DNA of 33,743 nt. It comes from an uncultured Planctomycetia bacterium. Its GTDB lineage: Bacteria > Omnitrophota > Gorgyraeia > Taenaricolales > CAZCCH01. The stretch is taken from positions 1-33,743 of the forward strand of contig CAZCCH010000015.1 in assembly GCA_964497315.1 (NCBI GenBank). Reading direction: 5' to 3'. The position numbers and the translations under genes are program-made. Positions 19,012 to 33,743 of this stretch are shown piece by piece. Every line of letters starts with the position of its first letter. The first letter of the stretch is position 1. The notes beneath the pieces are model-generated. The model saw nothing but the letters and a program-made list of their open reading frames with translations. It was not told where the DNA came from and made no database searches.

Positions 19012-19033
19012 ATCTAAAAAATAGACTATTATT

Positions 19034-22000
19034 ATGAAACTATCAAACTCTAATATCCACAAAATTATATCAATAGCACTCCTTGTGACGTTTATGATGT
19101 CACTGATAGGGCCGGAGCTTGCCTTAGCTTCTTCTGAAACCCTTAGACCCCATGTTACATCAAGAAAAAAACCTCTTCTAAAAGAGATGATTGCAAGGTT
19201 TACTGAGTTGCAACGTCCTTCAGTAGCATCTAGTGCAGAAGACTTTAGAAAAGATGAAGTGCGCATAGTTAGAGAAATGACTGAAGCTGGACAGCTTTAT
19301 TTTCGCCATGAACCAGAAAAACCAAGTGCAATATACTATATACCATTTTTGCGATATAGAGCAAGGCTTACACGTTGTAGGGGTGTAGCTGATTATACCA
19401 GTGCTGTGTTGAATGAGAAAGATAGAAGGTTTTCTACATTTAAGAGTGAGCGCGATGGTTTTGAGCGTTGGTTTAGAACTTCCCAGGAAGGTTTTCCATC
19501 GGCAGCATTGTACGACATTGATGTTCATCCTCAAGACTTAAATGATGCCATTGCAGCACTCATAGAGCAGAAGACCAAAGAAAAGGACAATACCATTACT
19601 GTCAGGGCCTTCGGTTCTGGTTTACCGGCCTTACTTTTACCTGGAGATCCAGCTACACTTCTAGCAGGAGATGTTGAAATAGAAACTATTTTAAAGTTTA
19701 TATTATCAGGTCTAAGGCATACCAGGAATAAAGCAAAATGGACTGTGGTAGTTTATGTATATGATAAAAAGACAGCTTATTTAGGGCAACTGGAAAAGGT
19801 TCTTTTGGAAAAATTAGAAAACTCACCAATGCCATTTAATATTGTATTAAATCTTAGATATGGTGATATAGCAGATAGAGAGCAATACCCATATATGTTT
19901 GAAGAACAAAGTGACATTAATGTTTGCCGTAATATCACTCAAAGTGGTGAGAGTTTTTCTAAAGGAGATAGTATTTTTCATGGGCAATTAGTTAATAGCC
20001 TGTCACCTCATGGGTTTATTATACATGGTGCGCGTAGAAGGGGAGATAGGATTATATTAGCTTCTGATAGAGATGCTCTTAAGAGGTTAAGTGGCGATTT
20101 TCTGGATAGTAATTCTTCAGAAGATGAAGCTACTAGTAGGTTTTCAGAAATAGGTGCAATAGGTCACTTGGAAGAGGAAAGAAAAACAGAAGATCTTATT
20201 GCTGCATTGACTGCCTTTGATATTCCTTTTATACCCACAGAAAGCAATTGTGAATTTACAAGAATTTCCGCAGGTCATTCAAACCTTACGTATAATATTA
20301 AGCATAATGGCAAAAATAGGCATATTCTTCAACAAATGAGCACAATTTATGATGCAAATGCCCTTAATGCTAATCTGAACTTATTAGAACAGGCTCAAGA
20401 TGCATGGCTTAAGGAAGGCGCAGAAGATGAATACTGGCAGCCCGTTCATTATGTTAATGTCAAGGGCGCTTCTGATAAGCTATATTGTGATACAGCAGGC
20501 AGAATTTGGCGTTTAATGGATTATATTCCAGGAGAGGTTTTTGGAAAATTTAGTGATGTTCCTCAGAGTGATCGTAGAGAGATTGCCCAATCTCTTGGTA
20601 GGGCAATTGTTGTTTTTCGAAGAATGCTAGAATCAGTTCCTTTAGAAAGCTGGGAAAAGGATATGTCAGGTTTTCATGATCCACAATACTTTTATGCTTA
20701 TCTTCATTCTATTTGGCTGGGTCAGGAGGTGCCATTGAATTTTACTGATGGATCATCACATATGGTAGTTAGAGATCCTAGCGTAACAAGTGAATATTCA
20801 GAAAGAATAAATCTCTTAAAGAGAAAGATTGAAGATAGGAGACATATCTTAACTAGCTTAGATGAACTTGGCCAGGTTGTTTCACATGGAGATTTAAAGA
20901 TTGATAACCTATTCTTCCGAAAACACAAAGGCCGCTGGAAGTGCATATCTATTGCTGATTTAGATACGATACAACCTAGAAACGTCCTTACTGATCTTGG
21001 TGATGCACTGCGTTCTGCCGGCAACCCAGCTGGGTCAGAACCGAGAGCAATAGATGATGTAACAATAGATGTTGATGTGGTCACAAATATAATAAATGGA
21101 TACCTAGAAGCCACAGCAGGGTTTTATGATCACACAGAGGCAGAGCGCTTGAGACCACATACTATTGAGGCATTTAAACTTCTTCTGTATGGGCAGTCTA
21201 TGTGGTATTTAGCAGATGCACTTACTAATAGCGCATACTTTAATATAGGTGCAGAGAGAGCGCTATATAAGGCAGAGGTGCAGATGAGGGCATTGGAGCA
21301 GTTGGAAGAGTTAAGTCTAATTAAAGATGGCCCATTTGCTGATTTTGTCAAACCTGATGCCAGTAGGTTTGGGGAAAGGACTGCCGAAGAACGAATTGCT
21401 GCGCTGCGGGAAGATTTGGTGTATTATGAAGCAGCCGCGACAGCGTCTTCAGCACCTGATCAGGATTTTCCAGATGATATTTGTGATGTAGGTACAGGCG
21501 AAGCCCACCTGATGAATGAAGTCCACATTGCAGCTGATTCTGATGAGCGCCCTGAAAGAATAATTAGCGCATACACCGCTGGTCCTTGCCGGGCATATGT
21601 TATTAAAGGTAGAGTAAATGATGAGACAAGATTGTTTCTACGACATAGAGCTGCGGTAGAGGGCATACTTGATGATTTAAGAGAAGATATAGCCGCTTTA
21701 GAGAGAGCTGGCATGCAAGATAGAGAGGTTGTTTTTAAGCTTGATTTAAAGACGCAAGCCGGCCTGGAGGTCGTGAGGCTTGGATGGGTTTCTCCAGAAG
21801 AACTGAGGGAAAAAATTAAGGAAATATGCGGGCCTCGAATCTATACAGAAGAAGGCATTTTCCCACATGAAATTACTGATGTAATTGCAACCCAGGAAGG
21901 AGTAGTTATTTATTGCCCATATAATTCTAATGCCTCCAAGATTATCTTATGGCCAGAAAGCAAGGAAGGTGTATTCATGGATGCTGTATTGCCCAATGCA

Positions 22001-25000
22001 GAAGTCGTAGAGGATGAGGCATTTTCTGCTCAAAGCAGGTTTGGGGAAATGGCTGTTGATGCACTCAAGGGGAACATAAAGAGAGCGGTGTCTGTATTTA
22101 GGGATACGGCTATTGTAAAAAGTCCACAGTTAATAGAGGAAGACAAAAACAGAGTTTGGGTTATTAACAATATCTTTGAAGATAGATTCCTTCTAGATAG
22201 CGTAGTTTTAAAAGATCCAGACCCTAAACATGAAGAATATTTTTATGCTTCAAGAGAAGGGCTTGATATGTATGAGGCCCATTTTGAGAGTGACTATCCT
22301 CGCGTTGAAATAGCCCAAACAGTGATAATCGATAATCCGAAGGAAAATGATCTAGTTGGTACAAAAAGGGCATCACAGTGCCTTCCACTACTATTTGCTA
22401 ATATTCCTGATAACAAGCCCAACATGATAGGTTCTTCTCATATATTCACTTCGACAGACCCGACATTTTCATCCTTGGGTGATAAACTTCTTGACGCTGG
22501 ATATGAAAACCTAATTGTTGTAATTCCTCGTCCGAAAAAGCTTGGACGAACCGTAGCTCCATTCGCATTAAGAACATCTCAGTATGAGGAGGTGATAGCT
22601 AATATGCGAGCTAAAGGAATTACAGTATACGAGGTACCTTATCAAGACGTTTCAATAAGTGCTGCCGCAACAGCAGATGGTTTTGCGATATTCATAGAAA
22701 AATTCGTTGACCCCACAACAAAAAGGACAAAAGACATTGAAGAATTTGTTCTTCTTGAACCTATAAAAACATGGCAAGAATTCTCAAGTAGGTTTGGGGA
22801 GGTTGCTATTATTGAAGGTAATGCTGCACCGGAAGTTCTTCCGGCAACAGAGAATAGGATAGAGCTTGCGTTGAATATGCCTTCTGAAAGGGCTACGCAA
22901 ACAGGAACTGCCTGTATTAGACCCACGAAGGAAAGGGGATTTGCTGATGTATGGAGCCGCAGGGATTTTATGAAAGCCGGTGCTTTTGCTACGACTGTAG
23001 CAACTGTTTTTGGCAGTTTACCGAAGACCGGAGTTGCTGCTACGCCAGATGCTATTAAAGTCAAGGCAAAGGAGCTTTGTACACAATATTTAAAAGATGT
23101 TTGCGATGAGAAGATAACACTTGGACTAGATAATAGTTTAGGAACCTGGCGTGAAGTTCTCAAGGACAGGGAAGAATACGCCGACTTACTCAAGCCCGAT
23201 AATAATTATGCATTGCTTACTGCGTTTGTTTTTGACACGTTGTTTCCTGCGCTAGAGGAAGCTGCAAGCCGAACACGTGTCAGTGCCCATAACGCATCTA
23301 TAAATATAGAATTAGCCTTAATGAATCTCTTGGATAAAAAAGATGAAAAGGTCGAGGCATTTTTACGTCATACCTTAGCCAGGACCACTGACTCCTTGGT
23401 TAGAACAAGACGAATCCAGAATAAGGTAGAACGCGATAGACGAATTGGTATTGCACTGCAAAGACTGGAGAGCGCCTCTGCTTACATAGGGCCAGAGATT
23501 TCAGATAAGCTGGTTAGTATAGTCAAATTACACGATAGTTTAACGCAGCTTGGTCTGGAGCAAAAGGAAGAGATAGAAAGAGTATCCATGGAGATCAATA
23601 GTTTGATAATAGACCTAAATAAAATTCTAATTCCGCTTGGCTTATACTGCAGGGTTTCAATGAATGTAAGTCTGGGTGATGACAAAGAGCATATCTACAT
23701 CAAGTCGTTTAAAATAGAAAAAACCCGTTTATATAAAGCAACTGACGGCAAAGTTGTTAAGGTCTATATTGTAAAAGGGATAGATAACATAGCTATAACA
23801 AATGTCTTTGGTTTTCGCAGACTGGAAACAGACTATGCTGTAGTAATTTTAGATAATATAGAATCCAAAGCGAGAGACATAGAGGAAGTCCTAAAACATG
23901 GAAAATCTGATGCCCATAAGGATATAGAGAGCAGGCTGACTGCAATTGGGAAAGCAAGATTAGCAGACCTAAGGGTTTTACTTGTTGAGCTGGCAAAAAA
24001 GGAATTTAGTGGTTTGACCAGACAGCAAATAATGAATAAGATTCAAGTTTTAATCGAGACCCACGAGATAAGACATGTATTAGATAGGGGTAACTTTACA
24101 AGGGAAGAGCGCGATAAAAAAGAAGGTTCGGCTTTTATGGCAGAATTGATTCTGGCAGAATTGATTACAGGTACAGCTACATATTATAGTGTATTAAAAT
24201 GGGCTGAACATGTATTCAGAGGAGGAGAGCATGATTATGCCGCAAGGATGGTATTTGAAGGATTGATGAAAAAAGCAAAAGAGAAGGGATATGTAAATGC
24301 ATCCGTAAACCTGAAACATGTTAGCTTTAGAGAGTTGATAAAGACAGTAGAGACATTGCGCAGGCTAAGTAAGGGTGAAATTGCAGGTCTGGCAAGAGAG
24401 TCCTATAAAGAAATATTTGGTTTTGAATTTATAGATGCCTTGCCTGTCATTCAGCCTCCTGGTCGCTTTACCGAGCCAAAAAAGACAGCAACGTGTGAAA
24501 TAGCAATTAGAGGGAGAATGCATATTATACCCTCAGACTTGCTTGCCTATGAGCTATCAAACCTTTATAACGCAGTTAGGGGTAAGATTAATTTTACATT
24601 TAAGAAGGAGCTAGGAGACGATAGAGTTCTTGAAATGACTAATCCCGGGACAATAACTAATATTCTTAGCTTTGGACTGGGGCCTGGGGATATTCTAGAA
24701 GTTAGCGTGGAAGAGGACCTACCACGAGATGTGCAGGAAGAGGCATTGAATTACATTGAGGCTTTGTTTAATAGCTACCATATACTACAAGCAACTCAAT
24801 TGGCGCAGATGCATGGTGCTGAGCAGGCACGGATGGCTTTAGGTGGAACACCCTATGTTGATCTTGCCTCAGCAGAGCAGTATGGATTGGAGATAGTGCG
24901 TTCAGATCTATCTAGCAGTCTTTGGCCTGCATTAAGAAGACTAATAAGCATGTTGAAGCGTGATGTTGAGATTTCTCGTTTTACAGAAAGGGGAGATGAA

Positions 25001-28000
25001 ATACCCACTTCACCAGTCGATCCTGCAAGGTTTAGGGAAGATAGTAGGCTCATAGATGAGCGGGCAAGGGATATGCTGAAGGTGCTGTGTGAAAGCAGGC
25101 GCAGCCAGCCAACCAACACCAAAGCACGAAGGGCATTGGTGCGTTTAGAACACCTCGTGGATTCCAGATGGTCGTATGGTGAACAGTGGAGCGAAGTTAT
25201 CGATACATTGCGCGAAGCCGGACTCATCACCTCAGATACGGCAGGGTGGCTCGGCAGTTTGGATGATGAAGTTGTGCGCAGAACCATGTTCTATGTGACT
25301 GTGCGTTATCTTGACATAATGGAGCATGAAGTTTTATTTCACGGAACCTCACTGCATAACATAGACAGTATCAAGAAACATGGTCTGCACCCTGAGCATG
25401 TACCCCCGGGCAAAGAAGAACTTCAAAGGGTATTTGGCATAGTAGGCAAGGCGCTCGGAGAAGATCGCGCAATGGAGATTACAGAAGGTCAATTAAGTTT
25501 TGAATATGATCTAAGCCTTGCTAATTTTTACTTTGCTATCCTAGGCCCTGAGATGTTGCGAAGAGCGATAGGGGATTTACAAGAAATAAAGAAGCTAGGT
25601 TTTCCTGAAATTGATGAAGCAGATAGAAAATTTATAGAATATTTTCTTGAGCACTGGAATGATGGGTATCTTTCTTCAAACCAGCCATGCCTTCTGGCCG
25701 TACCGTTTAAGACAATCGTACAGTTTATGGATTTAGAGCAAGACGCTTACCAAAGGGATCGGACTAGGTTTCTGAAAAGGCCGCACGAATTTTTTAATGA
25801 TGTTATATTGCTTTACCTGTTTCCTTGGGAAACCTGGGTGGGGGAGGGTACATTGTTACCATTCCGCCTTCCAGCGCTTGATAAAATTGAAACAGCAATG
25901 CACGAACAAATGGCCGTTACCTTCCATGACGTGCATACATATTCCAGACCTAACTATGATCTGGGTGATATTTATGTTGTTACTGGTAAAAGAGATGCCC
26001 TCAATCTAGTACCGCTAAAACAAGTAGAAATAGATGAGCTTGAGAGAACCGCTGTTGTCCTCAGAGAAGTAAATCAAGAATGTCAAGAAAAACAAGGAGA
26101 AGTTTTCAATCGTAGCTTTTCTTCCCAGGAAGCACTTGATTTTTGCGCCGAGCTTCACAGCATTGCCCGGGAAGCCATTGCCAAGTCAAATTATGAGAGA
26201 ACCGATGGGTTATCAGGTGCTCGCTTTTCTGAGCAAGTTGAGTTTGTGGAGGATAAACTGGTCAGGGAACCAATAGAGGATGAAAATCTAACCTTGGACC
26301 AAGTGGAACAAATTGAAAGAGACAGACAGCAGATTGAAGCAGAATTGACTCGGCACTACGGGGATGCCGAGGCGTTTTTTGGAGAAGGACCACGTGATGG
26401 GATAAGAATTATTGCAACCACTGATGAAGAAGGCGAATTGATAGCAACTAGCCCCATTTATTATATAGCCCAAGGGGTAGCAATAAATGAGACCAGGCAA
26501 GAGGTATTGCTGAATTATCTTAATACGACTAGAGCGGGGATAGCAGAAGAAGGTTCGCGATATACGGTTTTTCATGAGATGGGTCACTGGGCTAATGAAA
26601 GTAGAGGTATTTCTAGTATAGTGCGGGAATTGATAGGTCCACAGATGGAGGAGATAGCGGCTTCGCATATTGAGAGGCATCCGGATGAATTGGGATTTTA
26701 CCTTGACTTGTATAATTCAAAGCTTAGAGAAGGTGAGATTCCTGTGGATAGGCTGCAAGAGTTACTGAAAGGCTGTTTAGTCGTCAAAGGCCTTACGCTT
26801 TTCGAGGATTGCTTGGTTGACAGGCAGTTATTAGAGTTAGCTCGCGCAGGAGATCTCGAAGGACTTGACAGAGAATTAATTGGTACAAGGAAAATACTTT
26901 TAGGCGATAAGCTAAAACAGCCAGATCTTTGTTGTCTCGCCATACTTAGATACAGGCTGCTTGAGGAAGTATATTCTCCAGATGATAGGACCAAGGTAGA
27001 TATTTTCCCGGATGACTTCAATCCAGAAAACTTTGGAATAAACGCAGAAATGATGAAGCAGATAGATGATGATGCGCGAGCGATGGCTGTGGCAATCAGG
27101 GGTGCGGAGCGCATGATAGCTAAATACGCGCCAGGAAAAATTGCGCCTCCAGGAGATTTGAGGGATTTAAAAGGCAGGCTGAAGTCATCTGTTGGAGATT
27201 TTATGCGACCATTGAAGAAATATCTTACCATTCCTGCGCTAATTTCTTATTTCAAGCTTAATCATACCCGAGTAGATCCCACGCGTTTCACCGAGGGTAC
27301 GGGTTCACTTAGTGCGGAGGGAAATTTGCCCGGCGATCAAACACTAGGTACTAGTGATTATTCCCCTGCCCGGTTTGTGGAAGGGGATGCCATTGCGCAA
27401 TGGCCTATTTCTATTGACGAGGCATTATTAAGAAGTGGTGAGTCTGCACGAGCTATTGCTGTAGAACCTGACTATGTTCCACCTTATGGAGTTTTAGCTC
27501 CTGGAGCTATTAATATTTCTGATTATCTCGCACTTGGCATGCTTGCTGCTTCAGGGATATCAAGTGAGCCGCAAGGGCAGGATGGGAAATTGAGCCGCAG
27601 GACGTTTCTTAAAGCTGCAGCCGCAGGAGCAGGCGTGGCAATTGGCAGCGCAGTAGTTCACAAGGTTCTAAAAAGCGATGATATAACACCGCGCATTTTA
27701 GATGATGCAGCCGATGAAAGATTAAGAAATGCTGGTAAGGCGATAAGTGCTAAATTCATGCATGTCTATGAAGAATACAAGGACAAAAATCCCGCCGAAA
27801 CAAAGCTGGTACGTGCACTTTTTAGAAAAATAAATGACCACAAGACAGAAAAGGAGATCATGCACCATCCTGAGCTTAAACACAAAAAAGATAACGTAGA
27901 CGTACTAATGGGTATAGGCGAACCTGCCGATGATAATGGTGAATCCCCTATCTATCTTTCATATAGCATACTGGGCCAACCCGATGAGATATTATGGGCA

Positions 28001-29113
28001 AAAATGGTCCACGAAGGATGGCATGCATATAATGAAATCCTCAAGAAGGCCAGTGGTGCAGCGGAGGCTATACGGCATGCACAAGATGAGATGCTTGCTA
28101 ATATAACCGAATGGGTTGAAAATCCCCAAAATCGCGATTCCATTAAAAGATATTTTAGCATTTGGGTAAATGAAGAGGAAATTGCCAATAGCTTGGAAAG
28201 AGCAGTTTTTGTTAGAGAAATAGGCGGTTCAGACAATGAGGCTATCGAAAGATTTGTGCAAAAAGCTATACAGCAAAATCCCAGGGCTCAGGCAGATACG
28301 GGCTCAGGCAGCAAAGAGAGAAAAGAGGCCTATGCGAGACATCTGAGAAGGTATGTAAGAGATCGAATACTGAGATATTATCGAATTCCCTCGTTACATG
28401 GTAGATTGCGATATATACTTAGTAGCTATTATTCACATGTAAAACCTGCTGTGTACATCGGGTTATTTCTAACAGAATTTTATGAAGGACGAGCTGATCA
28501 TCGAACTAGGACAACGAGCCCAGGCAGAAAGTTCTTCATAGGGCCAGATAGAATCGAACTAAATATAAGATCTCATGGAGCTAGTGGGCAGCAAAGGCTT
28601 ATTCTTACGCCTAAAGAGAATTTTTTAGAATGGGCATCGAACTGGGCAAATTCTGAGGAATATAAAAGATTGTTTGTGAAACCAGAAGGCCTTACGAAAA
28701 TGCGCGGTTCCCGCTTTTCCGAAGCCTCCCAAGCCATATTTGGCAAAATTGAGCAACCCACAGGCATAATAATGAAAGCAGATTTTGCTACTAAAATCTT
28801 TCCAGTTTTGCCAGAGTTAGCAGTCCACTTTGGCCAAAAGGTAACAATTGCTGTAGTGGGCCCTTCACAGCTAAAGGAGAGAATAACCAAAGTAAATGCA
28901 GTCTTGCCACATGATGTATCTATTATACTATGCGATACCATTGATGAAGCAGCCAAGGAGTTGTCTGAGAGAGGTATAGGCCTTATCAGATTACTCACCA
29001 GAAAAACAATAAAAGACCTTCCTTTGGTTCGTGAAACCCTCCTTATTACAGAGAAGACCCTACAGCTAATAGATGAGTTGAGATCCCGCAAAGAAATAGC
29101 TGGTGGGGCATAA
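19034..29113 (+). CDS. Giant secreted multidomain protein (3359 aa)
   Basis: Uninterrupted 10,080-nt ORF. Sec signal peptide (cleavage about ALA-SS). Kinase-like catalytic loop HGDLKIDN (residue 618) plus nucleotide loop SAGHSNLTYNI and IADLD. Internal SRRDFMKAGAFATTVATVFG (residue 1308) and SRRTFLKAAAAGAGVAIGSAVV (residue 2854). HExxH at residues 1677 (HEIRH), 2514 (HEMGH) and 2993 (HEGWH). EVLFHGTS...SIKKHGLHPEHV ART-clan motif at residue 2103. Confidence 0.8.
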   Translation: MKLSNSNIHKIISIALLVTFMMSLIGPELALASSETLRPHVTSRKKPLLKEMIARFTELQRPSVASSAEDFRKDEVRIVREMTEAGQLYFRHEPEKPSAIYYIPFLRYRARLTRCRGVADYTSAVLNEKDRRFSTFKSERDGFERWFRTSQEGFPSAALYDIDVHPQDLNDAIAALIEQKTKEKDNTITVRAFGSGLPALLLPGDPATLLAGDVEIETILKFILSGLRHTRNKAKWTVVVYVYDKKTAYLGQLEKVLLEKLENSPMPFNIVLNLRYGDIADREQYPYMFEEQSDINVCRNITQSGESFSKGDSIFHGQLVNSLSPHGFIIHGARRRGDRIILASDRDALKRLSGDFLDSNSSEDEATSRFSEIGAIGHLEEERKTEDLIAALTAFDIPFIPTESNCEFTRISAGHSNLTYNIKHNGKNRHILQQMSTIYDANALNANLNLLEQAQDAWLKEGAEDEYWQPVHYVNVKGASDKLYCDTAGRIWRLMDYIPGEVFGKFSDVPQSDRREIAQSLGRAIVVFRRMLESVPLESWEKDMSGFHDPQYFYAYLHSIWLGQEVPLNFTDGSSHMVVRDPSVTSEYSERINLLKRKIEDRRHILTSLDELGQVVSHGDLKIDNLFFRKHKGRWKCISIADLDTIQPRNVLTDLGDALRSAGNPAGSEPRAIDDVTIDVDVVTNIINGYLEATAGFYDHTEAERLRPHTIEAFKLLLYGQSMWYLADALTNSAYFNIGAERALYKAEVQMRALEQLEELSLIKDGPFADFVKPDASRFGERTAEERIAALREDLVYYEAAATASSAPDQDFPDDICDVGTGEAHLMNEVHIAADSDERPERIISAYTAGPCRAYVIKGRVNDETRLFLRHRAAVEGILDDLREDIAALERAGMQDREVVFKLDLKTQAGLEVVRLGWVSPEELREKIKEICGPRIYTEEGIFPHEITDVIATQEGVVIYCPYNSNASKIILWPESKEGVFMDAVLPNAEVVEDEAFSAQSRFGEMAVDALKGNIKRAVSVFRDTAIVKSPQLIEEDKNRVWVINNIFEDRFLLDSVVLKDPDPKHEEYFYASREGLDMYEAHFESDYPRVEIAQTVIIDNPKENDLVGTKRASQCLPLLFANIPDNKPNMIGSSHIFTSTDPTFSSLGDKLLDAGYENLIVVIPRPKKLGRTVAPFALRTSQYEEVIANMRAKGITVYEVPYQDVSISAAATADGFAIFIEKFVDPTTKRTKDIEEFVLLEPIKTWQEFSSRFGEVAIIEGNAAPEVLPATENRIELALNMPSERATQTGTACIRPTKERGFADVWSRRDFMKAGAFATTVATVFGSLPKTGVAATPDAIKVKAKELCTQYLKDVCDEKITLGLDNSLGTWREVLKDREEYADLLKPDNNYALLTAFVFDTLFPALEEAASRTRVSAHNASINIELALMNLLDKKDEKVEAFLRHTLARTTDSLVRTRRIQNKVERDRRIGIALQRLESASAYIGPEISDKLVSIVKLHDSLTQLGLEQKEEIERVSMEINSLIIDLNKILIPLGLYCRVSMNVSLGDDKEHIYIKSFKIEKTRLYKATDGKVVKVYIVKGIDNIAITNVFGFRRLETDYAVVILDNIESKARDIEEVLKHGKSDAHKDIESRLTAIGKARLADLRVLLVELAKKEFSGLTRQQIMNKIQVLIETHEIRHVLDRGNFTREERDKKEGSAFMAELILAELITGTATYYSVLKWAEHVFRGGEHDYAARMVFEGLMKKAKEKGYVNASVNLKHVSFRELIKTVETLRRLSKGEIAGLARESYKEIFGFEFIDALPVIQPPGRFTEPKKTATCEIAIRGRMHIIPSDLLAYELSNLYNAVRGKINFTFKKELGDDRVLEMTNPGTITNILSFGLGPGDILEVSVEEDLPRDVQEEALNYIEALFNSYHILQATQLAQMHGAEQARMALGGTPYVDLASAEQYGLEIVRSDLSSSLWPALRRLISMLKRDVEISRFTERGDEIPTSPVDPARFREDSRLIDERARDMLKVLCESRRSQPTNTKARRALVRLEHLVDSRWSYGEQWSEVIDTLREAGLITSDTAGWLGSLDDEVVRRTMFYVTVRYLDIMEHEVLFHGTSLHNIDSIKKHGLHPEHVPPGKEELQRVFGIVGKALGEDRAMEITEGQLSFEYDLSLANFYFAILGPEMLRRAIGDLQEIKKLGFPEIDEADRKFIEYFLEHWNDGYLSSNQPCLLAVPFKTIVQFMDLEQDAYQRDRTRFLKRPHEFFNDVILLYLFPWETWVGEGTLLPFRLPALDKIETAMHEQMAVTFHDVHTYSRPNYDLGDIYVVTGKRDALNLVPLKQVEIDELERTAVVLREVNQECQEKQGEVFNRSFSSQEALDFCAELHSIAREAIAKSNYERTDGLSGARFSEQVEFVEDKLVREPIEDENLTLDQVEQIERDRQQIEAELTRHYGDAEAFFGEGPRDGIRIIATTDEEGELIATSPIYYIAQGVAINETRQEVLLNYLNTTRAGIAEEGSRYTVFHEMGHWANESRGISSIVRELIGPQMEEIAASHIERHPDELGFYLDLYNSKLREGEIPVDRLQELLKGCLVVKGLTLFEDCLVDRQLLELARAGDLEGLDRELIGTRKILLGDKLKQPDLCCLAILRYRLLEEVYSPDDRTKVDIFPDDFNPENFGINAEMMKQIDDDARAMAVAIRGAERMIAKYAPGKIAPPGDLRDLKGRLKSSVGDFMRPLKKYLTIPALISYFKLNHTRVDPTRFTEGTGSLSAEGNLPGDQTLGTSDYSPARFVEGDAIAQWPISIDEALLRSGESARAIAVEPDYVPPYGVLAPGAINISDYLALGMLAASGISSEPQGQDGKLSRRTFLKAAAAGAGVAIGSAVVHKVLKSDDITPRILDDAADERLRNAGKAISAKFMHVYEEYKDKNPAETKLVRALFRKINDHKTEKEIMHHPELKHKKDNVDVLMGIGEPADDNGESPIYLSYSILGQPDEILWAKMVHEGWHAYNEILKKASGAAEAIRHAQDEMLANITEWVENPQNRDSIKRYFSIWVNEEEIANSLERAVFVREIGGSDNEAIERFVQKAIQQNPRAQADTGSGSKERKEAYARHLRRYVRDRILRYYRIPSLHGRLRYILSSYYSHVKPAVYIGLFLTEFYEGRADHRTRTTSPGRKFFIGPDRIELNIRSHGASGQQRLILTPKENFLEWASNWANSEEYKRLFVKPEGLTKMRGSRFSEASQAIFGKIEQPTGIIMKADFATKIFPVLPELAVHFGQKVTIAVVGPSQLKERITKVNAVLPHDVSIILCDTIDEAAKELSERGIGLIRLLTRKTIKDLPLVRETLLITEKTLQLIDELRSRKEIAGGA

Positions 29114-29165
29114 TAAAGACAAAGTAAAATCCCCAAAGAAAAATAATTTATTAAAAGAAAAGCCC

Positions 29166-29194
29166 TTGACAGAAGGGAGTTTCTGGTATATACT
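29166..29194 (+). promoter_or_regulatory. Near-consensus sigma70 promoter for the DUF134 gene
   Basis: TTGACA (29166-29171), 17-nt spacer, TATACT (29189-29194), with upstream TGG. Confidence 0.55.
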
Positions 29195-29254
29195 ATTAAC
29201 GAGCATATGCTCATAATAAATAGGGGGTTTATAGAGAGAGTAGTTGGAGGAGGC

Positions 29255-31955: not shown

Positions 31956-33743
31956 TTACCAGCTGCTAGTAAATGTCAAGAATGTATCTATGCTATGCTG
32001 GGTGTCAGTTTGCTCATCTTTTGCTGAAAGAGACATGTATTTAGTACCATATTCATCAAGGCGATACCTGCATAAGCCTTCTATGTCGTATCCCCCTGTT
32101 TGGTTATTTAATGCAAGCCTAGAAGATAGCTCTAAAGAATCATCTAGGTTAAAACCAAGCCCTATTTCTTGTTCGCAGACCTGCCAAATGCCTTGATTCT
32201 GCCAGTTTAGATTAGCTAGCCAAAGATTAAATGATTTTTCCCCTATATTATACCTTAGGTCTGTACCATAGCGCATAAGGCTGCGCCCCAAGTCATTTTC
32301 TAGGAATAACTCTGCATTCAACCCCAATATATCAAAATTTGTAAATCCCTTTATATGATTGAAACTAAAAGAATCATTCATGTGTAGTTGACTACCCAAT
32401 CTTAACCATGGCATAACTTCAATAGAGGGTGATACCTCAAAGCCATTATTTACATCTCTAGATAGGTATAAATCCAATTTCCTATCCCATATTTGTCTTT
32501 TGATTTCTGCTTCTATCTTGCTTGCAAAACGCAGTTCCATCATCCTATCAAGAGAGCTTTTGCCTGAGCCAACTAATTTAATCTTATAATCATTCCTGTC
32601 AAGTTCAACAGGTATATATGGATAGAAGTATTGGCTTAGACGCCAACCATAGGTAGGATTATCTATAGTAACGCCGAATTTTCCTCCAGGAATAAATACC
32701 CCATTATCTTCGAGCTCTTCTGTGTAAAGAGCGTTATTAGAAAGGCTTTTGTTTATTCCAATGTCTATATCCTCATCAAGATAATATAAATACGCCAATC
32801 CATCAAAGGAAATGAAATTCCCAGATATACTAAAAAGATCCCTGTGGTACTTTCCATAGATACGATGTGCAGAAGTGCTGGCCCACAAGTGAGTTTGGCT
32901 GTATGAATCTAGGAAAAGAGGCATATCCAATGCCAACTTACCATATTCCTGGCCTATAACTCCATCCTGGTATTCTCCTTGATAGCTTGCCTCAGGTGTG
33001 AAGTAGACCCCAGGGCCTTCCATTCCCTCTTCTCCTCCACTTCCCTCTATGGAATCGCCTAATTCTTGCACCAGTTGCCTTTCAGCAGCTTGCATATAGG
33101 AATCTACCCCTTCGTACCTTAAGGCATCAAAGAATTCCCACAGCCTCCCCTGAGGAGTGTCTGCATCAATTATGTCAATACAGTCATAAGATGAAAGGTT
33201 TATCTCTTTTAGATCAATAGCAAGCGAATGTATAACATCATCCCATTCAGGATTTCCAGTAGTTAGATATTTTTCCAATTCGCGCGGGTTTATCCTTACT
33301 TCTTTTAAGCTAGCATGAATGGTCTGATTTCGAACATCTTTACCTATACGCCTTGTCTCATAATTACTGAATACCTCTTCTAAGGTATCTGCAATTTCAT
33401 CTTCTGGGTATGTTTCTACCTCTATTATATAAACATCGTTATACAAACCACCTACATTTGTATATTTGTTAAAATCTACTCTCGCGCCAGTAACATCAAG
33501 CAACACGTCATTAAACCTGAATCTACCATCTCTCAAGGTATCTTCGCCTTTTGCCCAGGCTACGTTAGTTTCTATTGCACCATCTTCAGATATACTATGC
33601 CATTGCCCTCCATCTTCTTCAAGGTTCAATTCAAATATATTACCATTATAATCGGCCCTAAGTAGTTTTTCCAGCTCATCGTATTCAGCAGGTAATGTCA
33701 ATTAAATTGTGTAAATTCCTTTAAGGGTTTATCCTCCCACTTG
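31956..33743 (-). CDS. Hypothetical protein, acidic N-terminal region plus probable C-terminal outer-membrane beta-barrel; 5'-partial (runs off window)
   Basis: Reading frame is open to the window edge; the listed start is a TTG with no signal peptide. C-terminus FLTFTSSW with alternating beta-strand pattern. Confidence 0.5.

What the first reader, a model, noticed from the sequence alone, without database searches (positions are those of the whole stretch)
19034..29113. Single 10-kb ORF encoding a 3359-aa secreted protein that combines kinase-like, zincin-like and ART-like modules
An uninterrupted 10,080-nt ORF in an AT-leaning genome cannot arise by chance. The product starts with a Sec signal peptide and carries an unusual mix of modules. 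There is an APH/CotS-type kinase core (SAGHSNLTYNI, HGDLKIDN, IADLD). There are three HExxH motifs, where chance expectation is about 0.15 for this length and composition. There is an H-G-T strand motif of the ADP-ribosyltransferase/Tpt1 clan and two internal twin-arginine segments. No repeats typical of adhesins (Ig-like, cadherin, RTX) were seen, so this is not a standard giant adhesin. It looks more like a polymorphic-toxin or effector-like or surface enzyme-array protein. The combination is not one I recognise as a described family.
Basis: partly seen in the sequence, partly recalled or inferred. Interest (0 to 1): 0.85.

Follow-up and report, generated by a model that had tools for sequence, protein, structure and literature searches.

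The report
Motif-punctuated bacterial polyprotein-like giant gene
A real 10-kb bacterial gene, switched by a c-di-GMP riboswitch, strings together about ten unrelated protein units separated by the same five-residue "punctuation mark". This looks like a virus-style polyprotein that is cut into separate enzymes, an arrangement I could not find described for bacterial chromosomes.

Summary
The ORF (19034-29113, 3359 aa) is real. The identical protein recurs in independent assemblies, and chance is about 1e-109. The kinase module is confirmed as APH/NahK-like. Both internal Tat signals are confirmed. The zincin call rests only on HExxH motifs, and the ART call only on sub-threshold hits.

First, [A/S/T]-R-F-x-E occurs 12 times (0.89 expected) and splits the protein into a leader plus about ten unrelated modules. 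Second, at least seven paralogous genes in related metagenome genomes share the Sec-type leader, a roughly 60-nt promoter block and the same punctuation: 44 sites against about 4 expected. They carry different modules, including sigma-54 AAA+, receiver, HEAT and P-loop modules. Homology blocks start and end exactly at the motif. Third, internal modules carry their own targeting signals (Tat, TM anchors) just after a motif. Fourth, an Omnitrophota MAG has the same architecture punctuated by GDG[V/L] instead, including around the ortholog of one module. Fifth, a c-di-GMP-I riboswitch with terminator lies directly upstream.

Best reading: a c-di-GMP-induced precursor cut at the punctuation sites, possibly by its own HExxH modules. 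Cleavage is inferred, not shown. The family appears undescribed.

The parts
18795..18855 (+). Family-specific promoter block: UP-like box AAAACAAAAAGTAAGATTT, -35 TTGCTT (18825-18830), 16-nt spacer, extended -10 TGGTATACT (18844-18852)
   Evidence: The same block lies upstream of the family genes in L002 (two genes), L005, L006 (two genes) and L010, and more weakly in L009. Function as a promoter is inferred from the consensus.
18901..18985 (+). c-di-GMP-I (GEMM-I) riboswitch aptamer
   Evidence: Rfam RF01051, 43.5 bits against a gathering score of 35, full-length model match. A homologous aptamer (RF03167, 68.6 bits) lies upstream of paralog P0013 in L006.
18975..19012 (+). Intrinsic terminator (12-bp stem, T7 run). 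Its 5' arm overlaps the 3' strand of the aptamer, giving a predicted ON-switch expression platform
   Evidence: MFE forms the hairpin; z = -3.75. The same arrangement, with compensating stem changes, occurs in L006. The ON logic is inferred.
19034..29113 (+). Giant ORF, 3359 aa plus stop
19034..19195 (+). Leader, aa 1-54: Sec-type signal peptide (aa 1-33, ...PELALA/SS), then the conserved ETLRP propeptide that ends at the first punctuation site
   Evidence: Conserved in giant, P0004, P0006, P0015, P0017, P0013/P0023 and L006b. Hydropathy.
19193..19207 (+). Punctuation site 1, ARFTE (aa 54-58)
19196..20137 (+). Module 1 (aa 55-368), unassigned
   Evidence: No profile hit. Bounded by motifs.
20135..20149 (+). 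Punctuation site 2, SRFSE (aa 368-372)
20138..21364 (+). Module 2 (aa 369-777): APH-fold kinase resembling N-acetylhexosamine 1-kinase (domain aa 408-762)
   Evidence: Pfam APH E 2.2e-10. PDB 4ocu/4wh1 NahK E 4.5e-9, near full length, with catalytic motifs aligned.
21362..21376 (+). Punctuation site 3, SRFGE (aa 777-781)
21365..22036 (+). Module 3 (aa 778-1001), unassigned
   Evidence: No profile hit.
22034..22048 (+). Punctuation site 4, SRFGE (aa 1001-1005)
22037..22789 (+). Module 4 (aa 1002-1252), unassigned
22787..22801 (+). Punctuation site 5, SRFGE (aa 1252-1256)
22790..24463 (+). Module 5 (aa 1253-1810). It has its own Tat-type signal (aa 1305-1340, SRRDFMK...VAA/TP; nt 22946-23053) and HEIRH (aa 1677; nt 24062-24076)
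   Evidence: Second stretch of TIGR01409. Motifs.
24461..24475 (+). Punctuation site 6, GRFTE (aa 1810-1814)
24464..24976 (+). Module 6 (aa 1811-1981), unassigned
24974..25039 (+). Double punctuation: SRFTE (aa 1981-1985) and ARFRE (aa 1998-2002), with a 12-aa hydrophilic spacer between them
   Evidence: Similar tandem sites occur in P0006, P0013 and P0023.
25028..26221 (+). Module 8 in the numbering, called 'M7' in the text (aa 1999-2396). LFHGTS lies at aa 2101. ART/Tpt1-like only at sub-threshold level. Ortholog in Omnitrophota protein P0007
   Evidence: P0007, E 2.7e-4, 29% identity. Alignment. Weak PARP/KptA/Tpt1 hits.
26219..26233 (+). Punctuation site 9, ARFSE (aa 2396-2400)
   Evidence: It aligns within about 5 columns of the GDGVG site of P0007.
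26222..27283 (+). Module 'M8' (aa 2397-2750) with HEMGHW (aa 2514). Homolog is module 5 of P0004, 35% identity over the whole module
27281..27382 (+). Double punctuation: TRFTE (aa 2750-2754) and ARFVE (aa 2779-2783), with a 24-aa spacer
27371..28711 (+). Module 'M10' (aa 2780-3226). It has its own Tat-type signal (aa 2850-2882; nt 27581-27679) and HEGWHAYN (aa 2993). Homolog is module 3 of P0017, 61% identity, aligned residue 1-447 to 1-447
   Evidence: Pfam TAT_signal above threshold..
28709..28723 (+). Punctuation site 12, SRFSE (aa 3226-3230)
   Evidence: Invariant in all four M11 copies.
28712..29110 (+). C-terminal module 'M11' (aa 3227-3359): small Rossmann-like alpha/beta domain, shared as the C-terminal module by P0003/P0015, P0005/P0013 and P0006

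Best explanation
The gene encodes a modular precursor, a 'polyprotein', belonging to a small and apparently undescribed family found in uncultivated diderm bacteria. The only named relative is from Candidatus Omnitrophota.

Every family member has three fixed parts:
1. A conserved promoter.
2. A Sec-type leader that ends about 25 residues after its AxA site.
3. A five-residue punctuation mark, [A/S/T]-[R/H]-F-x-E, before every module.

The modules themselves are unrelated to each other and are exchanged between paralogs exactly at the marks.

Here, transcription of the giant is gated by a c-di-GMP-I riboswitch. The ligand-bound aptamer competes with a terminator, so high c-di-GMP is predicted to turn the gene on.

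I infer that the 3359-aa chain is cut at the 12 marks, most simply just before the conserved Phe, which would be a hydrophobic P1' residue. The HExxH modules embedded in the family are the best protease candidates, acting in cis or in trans.

Cutting would release about ten separate products:
- a NahK-like kinase
- three HExxH proteins, two of which then use their own Tat signals
- a possible ART/Tpt1-like protein
- several unknowns
- a small alpha/beta C-terminal domain

What is shown: the gene, the kinase, the Tat signals, the riboswitch, the motif, the family, the motif-delimited shuffling, and the alternative GDG[V/L] punctuation in another lineage.

What is inferred: cleavage, the protease, the ON logic, and where the products act. 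Possible sites of action are the producer's cytoplasm or envelope, or a prey or host bacterium. The conserved Sec leader, the c-di-GMP control and the presence/absence variation lean towards an exported effector cocktail.
For: (1) Motif enrichment. The giant has 12 RFxE sites against 0.89 expected (P 2e-10). Eight family proteins have 44 sites against about 4 expected. Position -1 is A/S/T in 40 of 44 sites, and the flanks are unconserved. Only 2 single sites occur in about 40,000 aa of other six-frame ORFs from the same loci.

(2) Selection is on the peptide, not the DNA. Arg is encoded by both CGN and AGR, and Phe and Glu by both of their codons.

(3) Modules are the evolutionary units. BLAST blocks between paralogs run from residue 1 of a module to its end, for example 1-447 against 1-447 at 61% identity and 1-252 against 1-258 at 66%. 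The exhaustive phmmer search of 1.84 billion proteins returned only proteins that share single modules.

(4) All Pfam domains lie inside modules: APH, HEAT, receiver, sigma-54 AAA+, CsrA and NAGPA.

(5) Internal modules carry N-terminal-type targeting signals shortly after a mark. Tat motifs lie 56 and 75 aa after a mark in the giant, and the second is conserved in P0017. Two K/R-flanked TM anchors lie about 20 aa after RFAE in P0004. An uncleaved chain has no TM segment between the leader and the first Tat motif, so its topology would not work.

(6) Marks sit in hydrophilic linkers. The hydrophobic fraction is 0.26 there against a background of 0.33. Tandem marks are separated by short hydrophilic spacers.

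(7) An Omnitrophota MAG (GC 55%) has the same architecture punctuated by GDG[V/L/M]: 8 sites against 0.56 expected, and 4 against 0.47. The ortholog of module M7 is 396 aa between GDG marks, against 398 aa between RFxE marks. This is what co-evolving protease and site pairs would look like.

(8) HExxH is enriched family-wide, 7 observed against 0.57 expected. Both punctuation types contain one conserved hydrophobic residue. From general knowledge, many zincins prefer a hydrophobic P1' residue.

(9) Riboswitch: RF01051 above its gathering score, an overlapping terminator, and the same design in paralog P0013.
Against: - There is no direct evidence of cleavage. No proteomics was possible.
- No module matches a peptidase profile, and the AF2 model of two modules failed.
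- P0013, P0015, P0023 and L006b have no HExxH, so processing would have to occur in trans.
- Some stretches of 800-1350 aa carry several domains without a mark. Examples are the two sigma-54 AAA+ units in P0015 and aa 61-1417 of L006b.
- In the confident M11 model, RFSE starts an alpha-helix rather than a loop.
- A Sec leader in front of ATP-dependent, DNA- or RNA-binding and Tat-routed modules is not explained by any single compartment.
- The riboswitch is present at only 2 of about 8 family genes.
- The N-terminal 2160 aa were never searched exhaustively. The word-index searches failed even to find the protein itself.
Confidence: 0.5

Rival explanations
1. The protein is an uncleaved, exported multi-enzyme 'array'. 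It stays in one piece in the periplasm or on the surface, and RFxE is only a favoured linker, hinge or helix-cap element between independently folding domains.
For: The Sec-type leader is conserved. Omnitrophota are known for very long multi-enzyme proteins whose processing has never been demonstrated. In the M11 model, RFSE begins a helix. Some multi-domain stretches lack marks.
Against: A passive linker does not need an invariant R/H-F-x-E with unconserved flanks, and it would not be replaced wholesale by GDG[V/L] in another lineage. Kinase, sigma-54 AAA+ with HTH, receiver and CsrA modules would have no ATP, DNA or RNA substrates outside the cytoplasm. Internal Tat signals and TM anchors placed right after the marks would give an impossible or pointless topology in one chain.
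Confidence: 0.2
2. RFxE is a short docking motif rather than a scissile site. Each module would be tagged for recognition by a chaperone, secretion or packaging adaptor, or modifying enzyme, for example one of the Fic proteins that recur nearby. The chain may or may not be cut elsewhere.
For: The motif has the properties of a short linear motif: short, in hydrophilic segments, with unconserved flanks, and sometimes in tandem. Fic genes lie within 3.5 kb of family genes in the window, L006, L010 and L013.
Against: Neither variable position is reliably a hydroxyl residue. Position -1 is Ala in 20 of 44 sites, and position +2 is A/G/V in 19 of 44, so Fic-type modification is unlikely. Docking does not explain why homology blocks begin exactly at the motif, or why N-terminal-type targeting signals follow it. 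No partner was identified.
Confidence: 0.15
3. The internal twin-arginine motifs serve dual Sec/Tat insertion of a single polytopic protein, as in actinobacterial Rieske proteins (recalled from general knowledge; not retrieved from the paper library here).
For: Both Tat-like signals pass the curated thresholds.
Against: There is no hydrophobic segment (KD above 1.35 over 17 aa) between the leader (aa 11-27) and aa 1309, and only one weak segment before aa 2855. The RR motifs therefore could not be returned to the cytoplasmic side. The protein is otherwise soluble.
Confidence: 0.03
4. The ORF is a conventional giant adhesin, or an artefact such as an assembly chimera or adjacent genes fused by sequencing errors.
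For: Only its length, its leader and the c-di-GMP control, which often regulates adhesins.
Against: There are no repeats of any kind. The identical sequence occurs in several assemblies and samples, with fragments breaking at different places. Paralogs show the same stop-free junctions.
Confidence: 0.02

Closest known systems
MARTX toxins (multifunctional-autoprocessing repeats-in-toxin) of Vibrio and relatives (general knowledge)
   Same: One very large exported precursor carries several unrelated effector modules. The modules are shuffled between strains and released by proteolysis between them.
   Different: MARTX toxins have long glycine-rich repeat regions, an InsP6-activated C80 cysteine protease domain that cuts after Leu, and type I secretion. 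None of these is present here: no repeats and no C80 or RTX profile hit. This protein instead has a Sec leader, a fixed RFxE mark, internal Tat and TM signals, and bacterial regulator modules.
Viral polyproteins with embedded proteases (for example picornavirus 3C, potyvirus NIa, nidovirus Mpro) (general knowledge)
   Same: A short conserved site lies at every junction. The site differs between lineages. Candidate protease modules sit inside the chain. Products would be routed separately after cutting.
   Different: This is a chromosomal bacterial gene in multiple paralogs, next to housekeeping genes. It has a Sec leader and riboswitch control. Cleavage is not demonstrated.
Giant multi-enzyme proteins of Omnitrophota ('archaeovorins' and others; bioRxiv 10.1101/2023.11.21.568195; 10.64898/2026.06.07.730766; PMC10066038)
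   Same: The lineage is probably related; one module and the whole architecture recur in an Omnitrophota MAG. Both have signal peptides, a mix of enzymatic and regulatory domains, and suspected post-translational cleavage.
   Different: Those proteins are 10,000 to 147,000 aa, with many TM helices, beta-helix regions and C39 or S8 peptidase domains. The authors state that cleavage points are unknown. Here the proteins are 0.9-3.4 kaa and soluble, and they show an explicit punctuation motif, a shared leader and a shared promoter.
Polymorphic toxin systems (CdiA VENN, Rhs PxxxxDPxGL demarcation motifs) (general knowledge)
   Same: A short conserved peptide marks the border at which variable modules are swapped.
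   Different: Those systems have one border per protein, a single C-terminal toxin, an adjacent immunity gene, and FHA or RHS repeat scaffolds. Here there are up to 12 borders, no scaffold repeats and no recognisable immunity gene; DUF134 lies downstream.
c-di-GMP-riboswitch-controlled surface proteins and the ZmpI protease of Clostridioides difficile (general knowledge)
   Same: A c-di-GMP riboswitch lies in the 5' leader of genes for exported proteins, and a zinc protease cuts repeated short sites in them.
   Different: Those are sortase-anchored adhesins cut at Pro-Pro sites by a separate enzyme. No homology was detected.
N-acetylhexosamine 1-kinase NahK / APH family (PF01636; PDB 4ocu, 4wh1)
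   Same: Module 2 aligns over nearly the full enzyme, with the catalytic loop and the Mg-binding DxD conserved.
   Different: NahK is a stand-alone cytoplasmic enzyme of about 360 aa. Here it is one module of twelve, behind a Sec leader. The substrate is unknown.

Membership tests
APH / NahK-like phosphotransferase (PF01636), module 2 only | Profile score above Pfam gathering threshold | tested here: met
   41.2 bits against 23.2, E 2.2e-10, aa 408-672.
APH / NahK-like phosphotransferase (PF01636), module 2 only | Catalytic loop HxDxxxxN and Mg-binding Asp (DxD) | tested here: met
   SHGDLKIDN aligns to THNDTKLNN, and IADLD aligns to IIDLD of NahK.
APH / NahK-like phosphotransferase (PF01636), module 2 only | Kinase activity and substrate | not testable with these tools
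   Needs an enzyme assay.
c-di-GMP-I riboswitch (RF01051) | Covariance-model score at or above the gathering score, full-length match | tested here: met
   43.5 bits against 35, model positions 1-87 of 87.
c-di-GMP-I riboswitch (RF01051) | Expression platform coupled to the aptamer | tested here: met
   Terminator 18975-19005 plus T7 run overlaps the aptamer 3' strand. The design is conserved in L006.
c-di-GMP-I riboswitch (RF01051) | Binds c-di-GMP | not testable with these tools
   The paralog's aptamer scores best as the GGC variant RF03167. Ligand specificity is unverified.
Tat signal peptide (TIGR01409 / PF10518) | Profile above threshold (S/T-R-R-x-F-L-K plus h-region) | tested here: met
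   TIGR01409 25.1 bits against 16.7, two stretches. PF10518 23.9 bits against 22.7 at aa 2852-2869.
Tat signal peptide (TIGR01409 / PF10518) | Located at the N-terminus of the exported polypeptide | tested here: not met
   The signals lie at aa 1309 and 2855 of the primary product. They would be 56 and 75 aa from a new N-terminus only if the chain is cut at RFxE.
Zincin metallopeptidases | HExxH in a helix preceded by hydrophobic residues | tested here: met
   Three sites. Two are conserved in homologs P0004 and P0017.
Zincin metallopeptidases | Profile or fold match to a peptidase family, with an identifiable third zinc ligand | tested here: not met
   No peptidase family in Pfam, NCBIfam or PDB sequence searches.
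Zincin metallopeptidases | Zincin fold in a structure model | tested here: inconclusive
   AF2 of aa 1999-2750 gave mean pLDDT 41.8, which is unusable.
ADP-ribosyltransferase / Tpt1 (KptA) clan | Profile score above threshold | tested here: not met
   PARP 13.8 bits against 26.7. KptA 16 bits against 231. Tpt1 structures at E 0.14-1.4 with a two-sequence profile. All hits fall on the same ~30 residues around LFHGTS.
ADP-ribosyltransferase / Tpt1 (KptA) clan | Catalytic residue set (H-Y-E, R-S-E, or the Tpt1 Arg/His tetrad) and split beta-sheet fold | tested here: inconclusive
   Only H-G-T is alignable. The model was unusable.
MARTX toxins | Glycine-rich A/B/C repeats, C80 cysteine protease domain, type I secretion genes | tested here: not met
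   No repeats. No C80 or RTX hit. No T1SS genes in the window.
Giant repeat adhesins (Ig-like / cadherin / RTX) | Tandem arrays of adhesin repeat domains | tested here: not met
Polymorphic toxins (CdiA / Rhs) | TPS/FHA or RHS scaffold, one demarcation motif, downstream immunity gene | tested here: not met
   No such domains. Twelve borders. The downstream gene is a DUF134 regulator.
Omnitrophota giant proteins (archaeovorin type) | More than 10,000 aa, many TM helices, C39 or S8 peptidase domains | tested here: not met
   3359 aa. Only the leader and one weak internal hydrophobic segment. No C39 or S8 hit. Criteria taken.
Proposed new family: RFxE-punctuated modular precursors | Conserved Sec-type leader ending in the first mark; at least two [AST][RH]FxE marks at module borders; shared promoter block | tested here: met
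   Giant: 12 marks, leader 38-55% identical over the aligned stretch to those of P0004, P0006, P0015 and P0017, and the promoter block present.

The most novel reading that the evidence does not exclude
These are true bacterial polyproteins, in effect operons at the protein level. One chain is translated and then cut at lineage-specific punctuation sites (RFxE here, GDG[V/L] in another Omnitrophota lineage) by zincin modules carried in the chains themselves. Each product is then routed by its own signal: Tat, a TM anchor, or none.

Because a Sec leader, c-di-GMP control and rapid module turnover accompany bacterial-type regulators (sigma-54 activators, CsrA, receivers) and Tat-routed hydrolases, the cocktail may be delivered into prey or host bacteria, where the victim's own Tat and Sec systems would sort the products.

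The same punctuation logic could supply the missing cleavage map of the 10-150 kaa Omnitrophota giants.
Probability: 0.3. Interest if true: 0.95.

Novelty: categorically new. Interest (0 to 1): 0.85.

Why it matters
Bacteria are thought to coordinate genes through operons, not polyproteins. The few processed multi-effector toxins, such as MARTX, are built on repeat scaffolds with a dedicated protease domain.

This case is different. A chromosomal gene family joins arbitrary enzymes and regulators behind a common leader and separates them by a fixed, lineage-specific peptide mark. If the chain is cut, that is a new way of packaging and exchanging functions.

It would also give a concrete handle, in the form of candidate cleavage sites, on an open question: whether the giant proteins of Omnitrophota act as one chain or as many products. 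The authors who described those giants say the cleavage points are unknown.

The internal Tat signals offer a built-in test of processing. The riboswitch links expression to c-di-GMP, the second messenger that commonly governs attachment (general knowledge). That fits the proposed predatory or parasitic lifestyle of the phylum (PMC10066038).

Even if the chain is not cut, the punctuation motif and the motif-delimited shuffling are a new rule of protein architecture.

Tried and rejected
- **Phage origin.** My first guess was a crAss- or N4-like giant virion protein. There are no PHROG hits and no phage DNA match, and the neighbours are housekeeping genes.
- **Internal repeats or an adhesin.** None found.
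- **Word-index homolog searches.** The first timed out. The other three (aa 1-1253, aa 1253-2397, and the M11 alignment) returned nothing beyond a fragment of the giant itself. They missed proteins known to be in the collection, so they say nothing about absence.
- **GTDB genome scans and JGI metagenome scans**, with the giant and with the M11 alignment: no relatives, and not even the source contig in the JGI set.
- **Taxonomic assignment.** Cluster names, sample IDs in the literature and NCBI record names all failed. Only P0007 carries a name, Candidatus Omnitrophota.
- **DNA-level explanation of the motif** as a recombination site: rejected because the codons are heterogeneous.
- **A universal C-terminal domain.** The four C-terminal module types show no detectable homology by hhalign. 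The M11 fold is generic.
- **Riboswitch at every family gene.** It is present at only two. The others have 5' UTRs too short to hold an aptamer.
- **Group I ribozyme upstream of P0015 as an allosteric leader**, as in C. difficile: rejected, because it interrupts a tRNA gene.
- **Structure-based test of the ART and zincin claims:** the AF2 model was too poor to search.
- **Signal peptidase I or rhomboid recognition of the mark:** the -3 and -4 positions do not fit (general knowledge of those specificities).
- **Autoproteolysis of the Nup98 HF/S type:** position +2 is often A, G or V, so there is no nucleophile.

Full report
**1.

- The window contains one ORF from 19034 to 29113 on the + strand, with an ATG start and 3359 codons.
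- At this base composition a stop is expected every ~14 codons. The chance of 3359 open codons is about 1e-109.
- The surroundings are an ordinary bacterial chromosome: D-Tyr-tRNA deacylase, inositol monophosphatase, endonuclease III-type glycosylase, Dus, SIR2, a patatin-Omp85 fusion and DUF134. It is not a phage.
- The contig is JGI metagenome 3300009311, Ga0117906_1000949.
- The identical 3359-aa product is recorded from NCBI, JGI and ENA assemblies. Contig-end fragments start at different residues (aa 1, 1702, 1973) and agree with it. An assembly chimera is therefore excluded.
  - The APH kinase core is confirmed. Pfam gives E 2.2e-10. NahK structures give E 4.5e-9 over almost the whole enzyme, with catalytic motifs aligned.
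  - There are three HExxH motifs against 0.16 expected.
  - There are two internal twin-arginine signals that pass the curated thresholds.
  - The H-G-T segment is present.
  - There are no repeats.

**2.

- The pentapeptide [A/S/T/G]-R-F-x-E occurs 12 times, at aa 55, 369, 778, 1002, 1253, 1811, 1982, 1999, 2397, 2751, 2780 and 3227 (position of the Arg). Only 0.89 RFxE are expected (P about 2e-10).
- The marks cut the chain into:
  - a 54-aa leader
  - ten modules of 133-558 aa
  - two short hydrophilic spacers
- The modules have no detectable similarity to one another.
- The only strongly hydrophobic segments are the leader and the second Tat h-region.

**3. It belongs to a family**

- An exhaustive phmmer search with aa 2160-3359 against 1.84 billion representative proteins returned six non-self proteins. 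Each shares exactly one module.
- Reading these proteins and their loci shows at least seven further genes with the same design: P0004, P0006, P0023, P0013/P0005, a 1584-aa neighbour in L006, P0015/P0003 and P0017/P0002.
- The shared design is a Sec-type signal peptide with an AxA site, then a short (E)TLRP or LRTP propeptide, then the first A-[R/H]-F-x-E, then unrelated modules each preceded by the mark.
- Across eight proteins there are 44 marks against about 4 expected:
  - Position -1 is Ala (20), Ser (15) or Thr (5).
  - Phe and Glu are invariant.
  - Arg is present in 41 sites and His in 3.
  - The flanks are not conserved.
- In about 40,000 residues of other ORFs from the same loci the pentapeptide occurs twice.
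- Arg is encoded by both CGN and AGR, and Phe and Glu by both of their codons. Selection therefore acts on the peptide.
- Module-level BLAST shows homology blocks running from the first to the last residue of a module:
  - giant M10 against P0017 module 3: 1-447 to 1-447, 61% identity
  - P0013 module 4 against P0023 module 2: 1-252 to 1-258, 66% identity
  - giant M8 against P0004 module 5: 35% identity
  - M11 recurs as the C-terminal module of four proteins
- All Pfam domains fall inside modules: APH, HEAT, receiver and two sigma-54 AAA+ units with lids.
- The marks lie in segments depleted of hydrophobic residues, 0.26 against 0.33.
- All family genes also share a roughly 60-nt promoter block: an UP-like box, -35 TTGC and an extended -10 TGGTATACT.
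- A related genome is syntenic on both sides but lacks the giant at this position. It carries P0017 a few genes away. These genes come and go.

**4. Targeting signals inside the chain**

- The two Tat signals of the giant lie 56 and 75 residues after a mark. The second is conserved in P0017, together with the peptide between the mark and the RR motif.
- P0004 has two strong TM segments, each about 20 residues after an RFAE and preceded by Lys/Arg. That is the shape of an N-terminal signal anchor.
- In an uncut chain these signals make no topological sense. After the Sec leader there is no stop-transfer segment that would bring the RR motifs back to the cytoplasm.
- They make sense if each module becomes a separate polypeptide.

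**5. A second punctuation in another lineage**

- The only named relative is P0007 (MBI2870978.1), from a Candidatus Omnitrophota MAG with 55% GC.
- It shares module M7 at 29-35% identity.
- It has no RFxE enrichment. It carries GDG[V/L/Q] four times against 0.47 expected.
- Its neighbour, a 1126-aa protein, carries GDG[V/L/M] eight times against 0.56 expected. That protein has a signal-peptide-like N-terminus, TPR, two CsrA domains, a receiver and a NAGPA domain. Every Pfam domain lies between marks.
- The M7 ortholog is 396 aa between GDG marks, against 398 aa between RFxE marks. The downstream marks align within about five columns.
- So the architecture is older than the motif, and the motif is lineage-specific. 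This is the pattern seen for protease and site pairs in viral polyproteins (general knowledge).

**6. Regulation**

- Directly upstream lie, in order:
  - the family promoter
  - a c-di-GMP-I aptamer at 18901-18985 (43.5 bits, gathering score 35)
  - a 12-bp terminator with a T7 run at 18975-19012, whose 5' arm uses the 3' strand of the aptamer
- Paralog P0013 has the same layout, with a c-di-GMP-I-GGC variant aptamer (68.6 bits). Its terminator has different but still complementary arms.
- I infer an ON switch, in which ligand binding prevents termination.
- The other paralogs have short 5' UTRs. These keep only the first ~12 nt of the aptamer (CGACAAAGG) just before the ATG.

**7. How it most likely works**

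Shown:
- a real gene
- a kinase module
- Tat signals
- a riboswitch
- a punctuation motif
- a family with motif-delimited module exchange
- an alternative motif elsewhere

Inferred:
- The chain is a precursor cut at the marks.
- The best protease candidates are the HExxH modules. They are enriched family-wide (7 observed, 0.57 expected; five unrelated module types).
- Both punctuation types contain one conserved hydrophobic residue (Phe, or Val/Leu). This could be P1', the position many zincins select (general knowledge).
- Members without HExxH would have to be cut in trans.

Where the products act is open:
- The Sec leader, the c-di-GMP control, the rapid turnover and the genomic neighbourhood (Fic and toxin-antitoxin-like genes) point to an exported effector set.
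- The kinase, sigma-54 activator, CsrA, receiver and Tat-routed modules need a bacterial cytoplasm.
- That cytoplasm could be the producer's own, with processing before export. Given the proposed predatory or parasitic lifestyle of Omnitrophota (PMC10066038), it could instead be that of a victim.

My estimates:
- about 0.5 that the chain is cut at the marks
- about 0.95 that the punctuated, shuffling family is real
- about 0.7 that the riboswitch is an ON switch

**8. Limits**

- No peptidase profile matches any module.
- The AF2 model of aa 1999-2750 was unusable, with pLDDT 41.8.
- The ART/Tpt1 idea has only consistent sub-threshold support.
- M11 folds confidently (pLDDT 88.7) into a generic Rossmann-like domain with no specific match. 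The different C-terminal module types are not detectably related.
- Long stretches in P0015 and L006b have no marks.
- The N-terminal 2160 residues were not searched exhaustively. The word-index searches were uninformative.
- Genome and metagenome scans found nothing.
- The taxon of the window is unassigned.

**9. Comparison with what is known**

- The closest analogies are:
  - MARTX toxins
  - viral polyproteins
  - polymorphic toxins with demarcation motifs
  - the giant Omnitrophota proteins
- Defining features of each were tested and are not met, so this is not a member of any of them (see the membership table).
- The two Omnitrophota giant-protein papers I could read suspect cleavage but state that cleavage points are unknown. 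They mention no junction motif, polyprotein or riboswitch.
- A full-text search for polyprotein together with Omnitrophota found nothing relevant.
- I therefore rate the architecture as new. The mechanism is plausible but unproven.

Noticed in passing
L013 3773-7150 (-) and L013 1-2956 (+) (NCBI GCA_016190205.1, JACPQZ010000045.1): Two multi-module proteins of a Candidatus Omnitrophota MAG are punctuated by GDG[V/L/M]: 8 sites against 0.56 expected, and 4 against 0.47. One combines CsrA x2, a receiver, NAGPA and TPR behind a signal-peptide-like N-terminus.
   Followed up: partly
window 15490-16407; L010 3717-4778; L006 1924-3087; L013 2965-3360: Fic/DOC-domain genes of different architectures lie within about 3.5 kb of a family gene in four loci, including the distant Omnitrophota MAG. 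Whether this is a functional link or just a variable-island context is unknown.
   Followed up: no
L009 9436-9715: A tRNA gene is interrupted in its anticodon loop by a compact 205-nt group I intron (RF00028, 76.3 bits). ARAGORN does not call the tRNA. It lies between pheT and the family gene P0015.
   Followed up: partly
L006 4629-4705: A c-di-GMP-I-GGC variant aptamer (RF03167, 68.6 bits) with its own terminator lies upstream of paralog P0013. The ligand specificity of this variant was not checked.
   Followed up: partly
window 19034-29113: Composition shifts within the gene. GC3 is 0.24-0.29 in modules 1, 2 and 4, and 0.33-0.40 in the remaining modules including all from module 5 on. Neighbouring genes are at 0.28-0.33. 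This would be consistent with modules acquired at different times or from different sources.
   Followed up: no
window 29075-29110 (last 12 codons) against P0009 and P0015: In another assembly the giant ends ...ELKSRKETETGA, identical to the end of paralog P0015, instead of ...ELRSRKEIAGGA. This suggests gene conversion between M11 copies.
   Followed up: no
L010 6886-7852 against window 18763-29206: A related genome is syntenic on both sides (the 132-aa Zn-ribbon gene and DUF134) but has a 173-aa ORF and a LAGLIDADG homing-endonuclease ORF where the window has the riboswitch and giant gene.
   Followed up: partly
L002 6921-9497 and 10001-14137; L006 4747-8136 and 8305-13059: Family genes occur as tandem pairs, each with its own copy of the promoter block. 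Fusion of such pairs is an obvious route to longer members like the giant.
   Followed up: no
window 12235-14562: Patatin-like phospholipase fused to an Omp85-type barrel (PlpD-like autotransporter architecture). It indicates a diderm envelope.
   Followed up: no
window 31956-33701 (-): A 581-aa ORF with no Pfam or PHROG hit. At the corresponding position, L010 has a 979-aa unannotated ORF next to an N_methyl (pilin-like) gene.
   Followed up: no
L005 8566-8632: A group II intron domain V/VI hit (RF00029, 56.2 bits) among tRNA genes, downstream of paralog P0004.
   Followed up: no
window 24138-24166: A perfect 15-nt direct duplication (TGGCAGAATTGATTC x1.9) inside module 5. It encodes the repeated AELI of FMAELILAELITG, 20 residues after HEIRH.
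   Followed up: no
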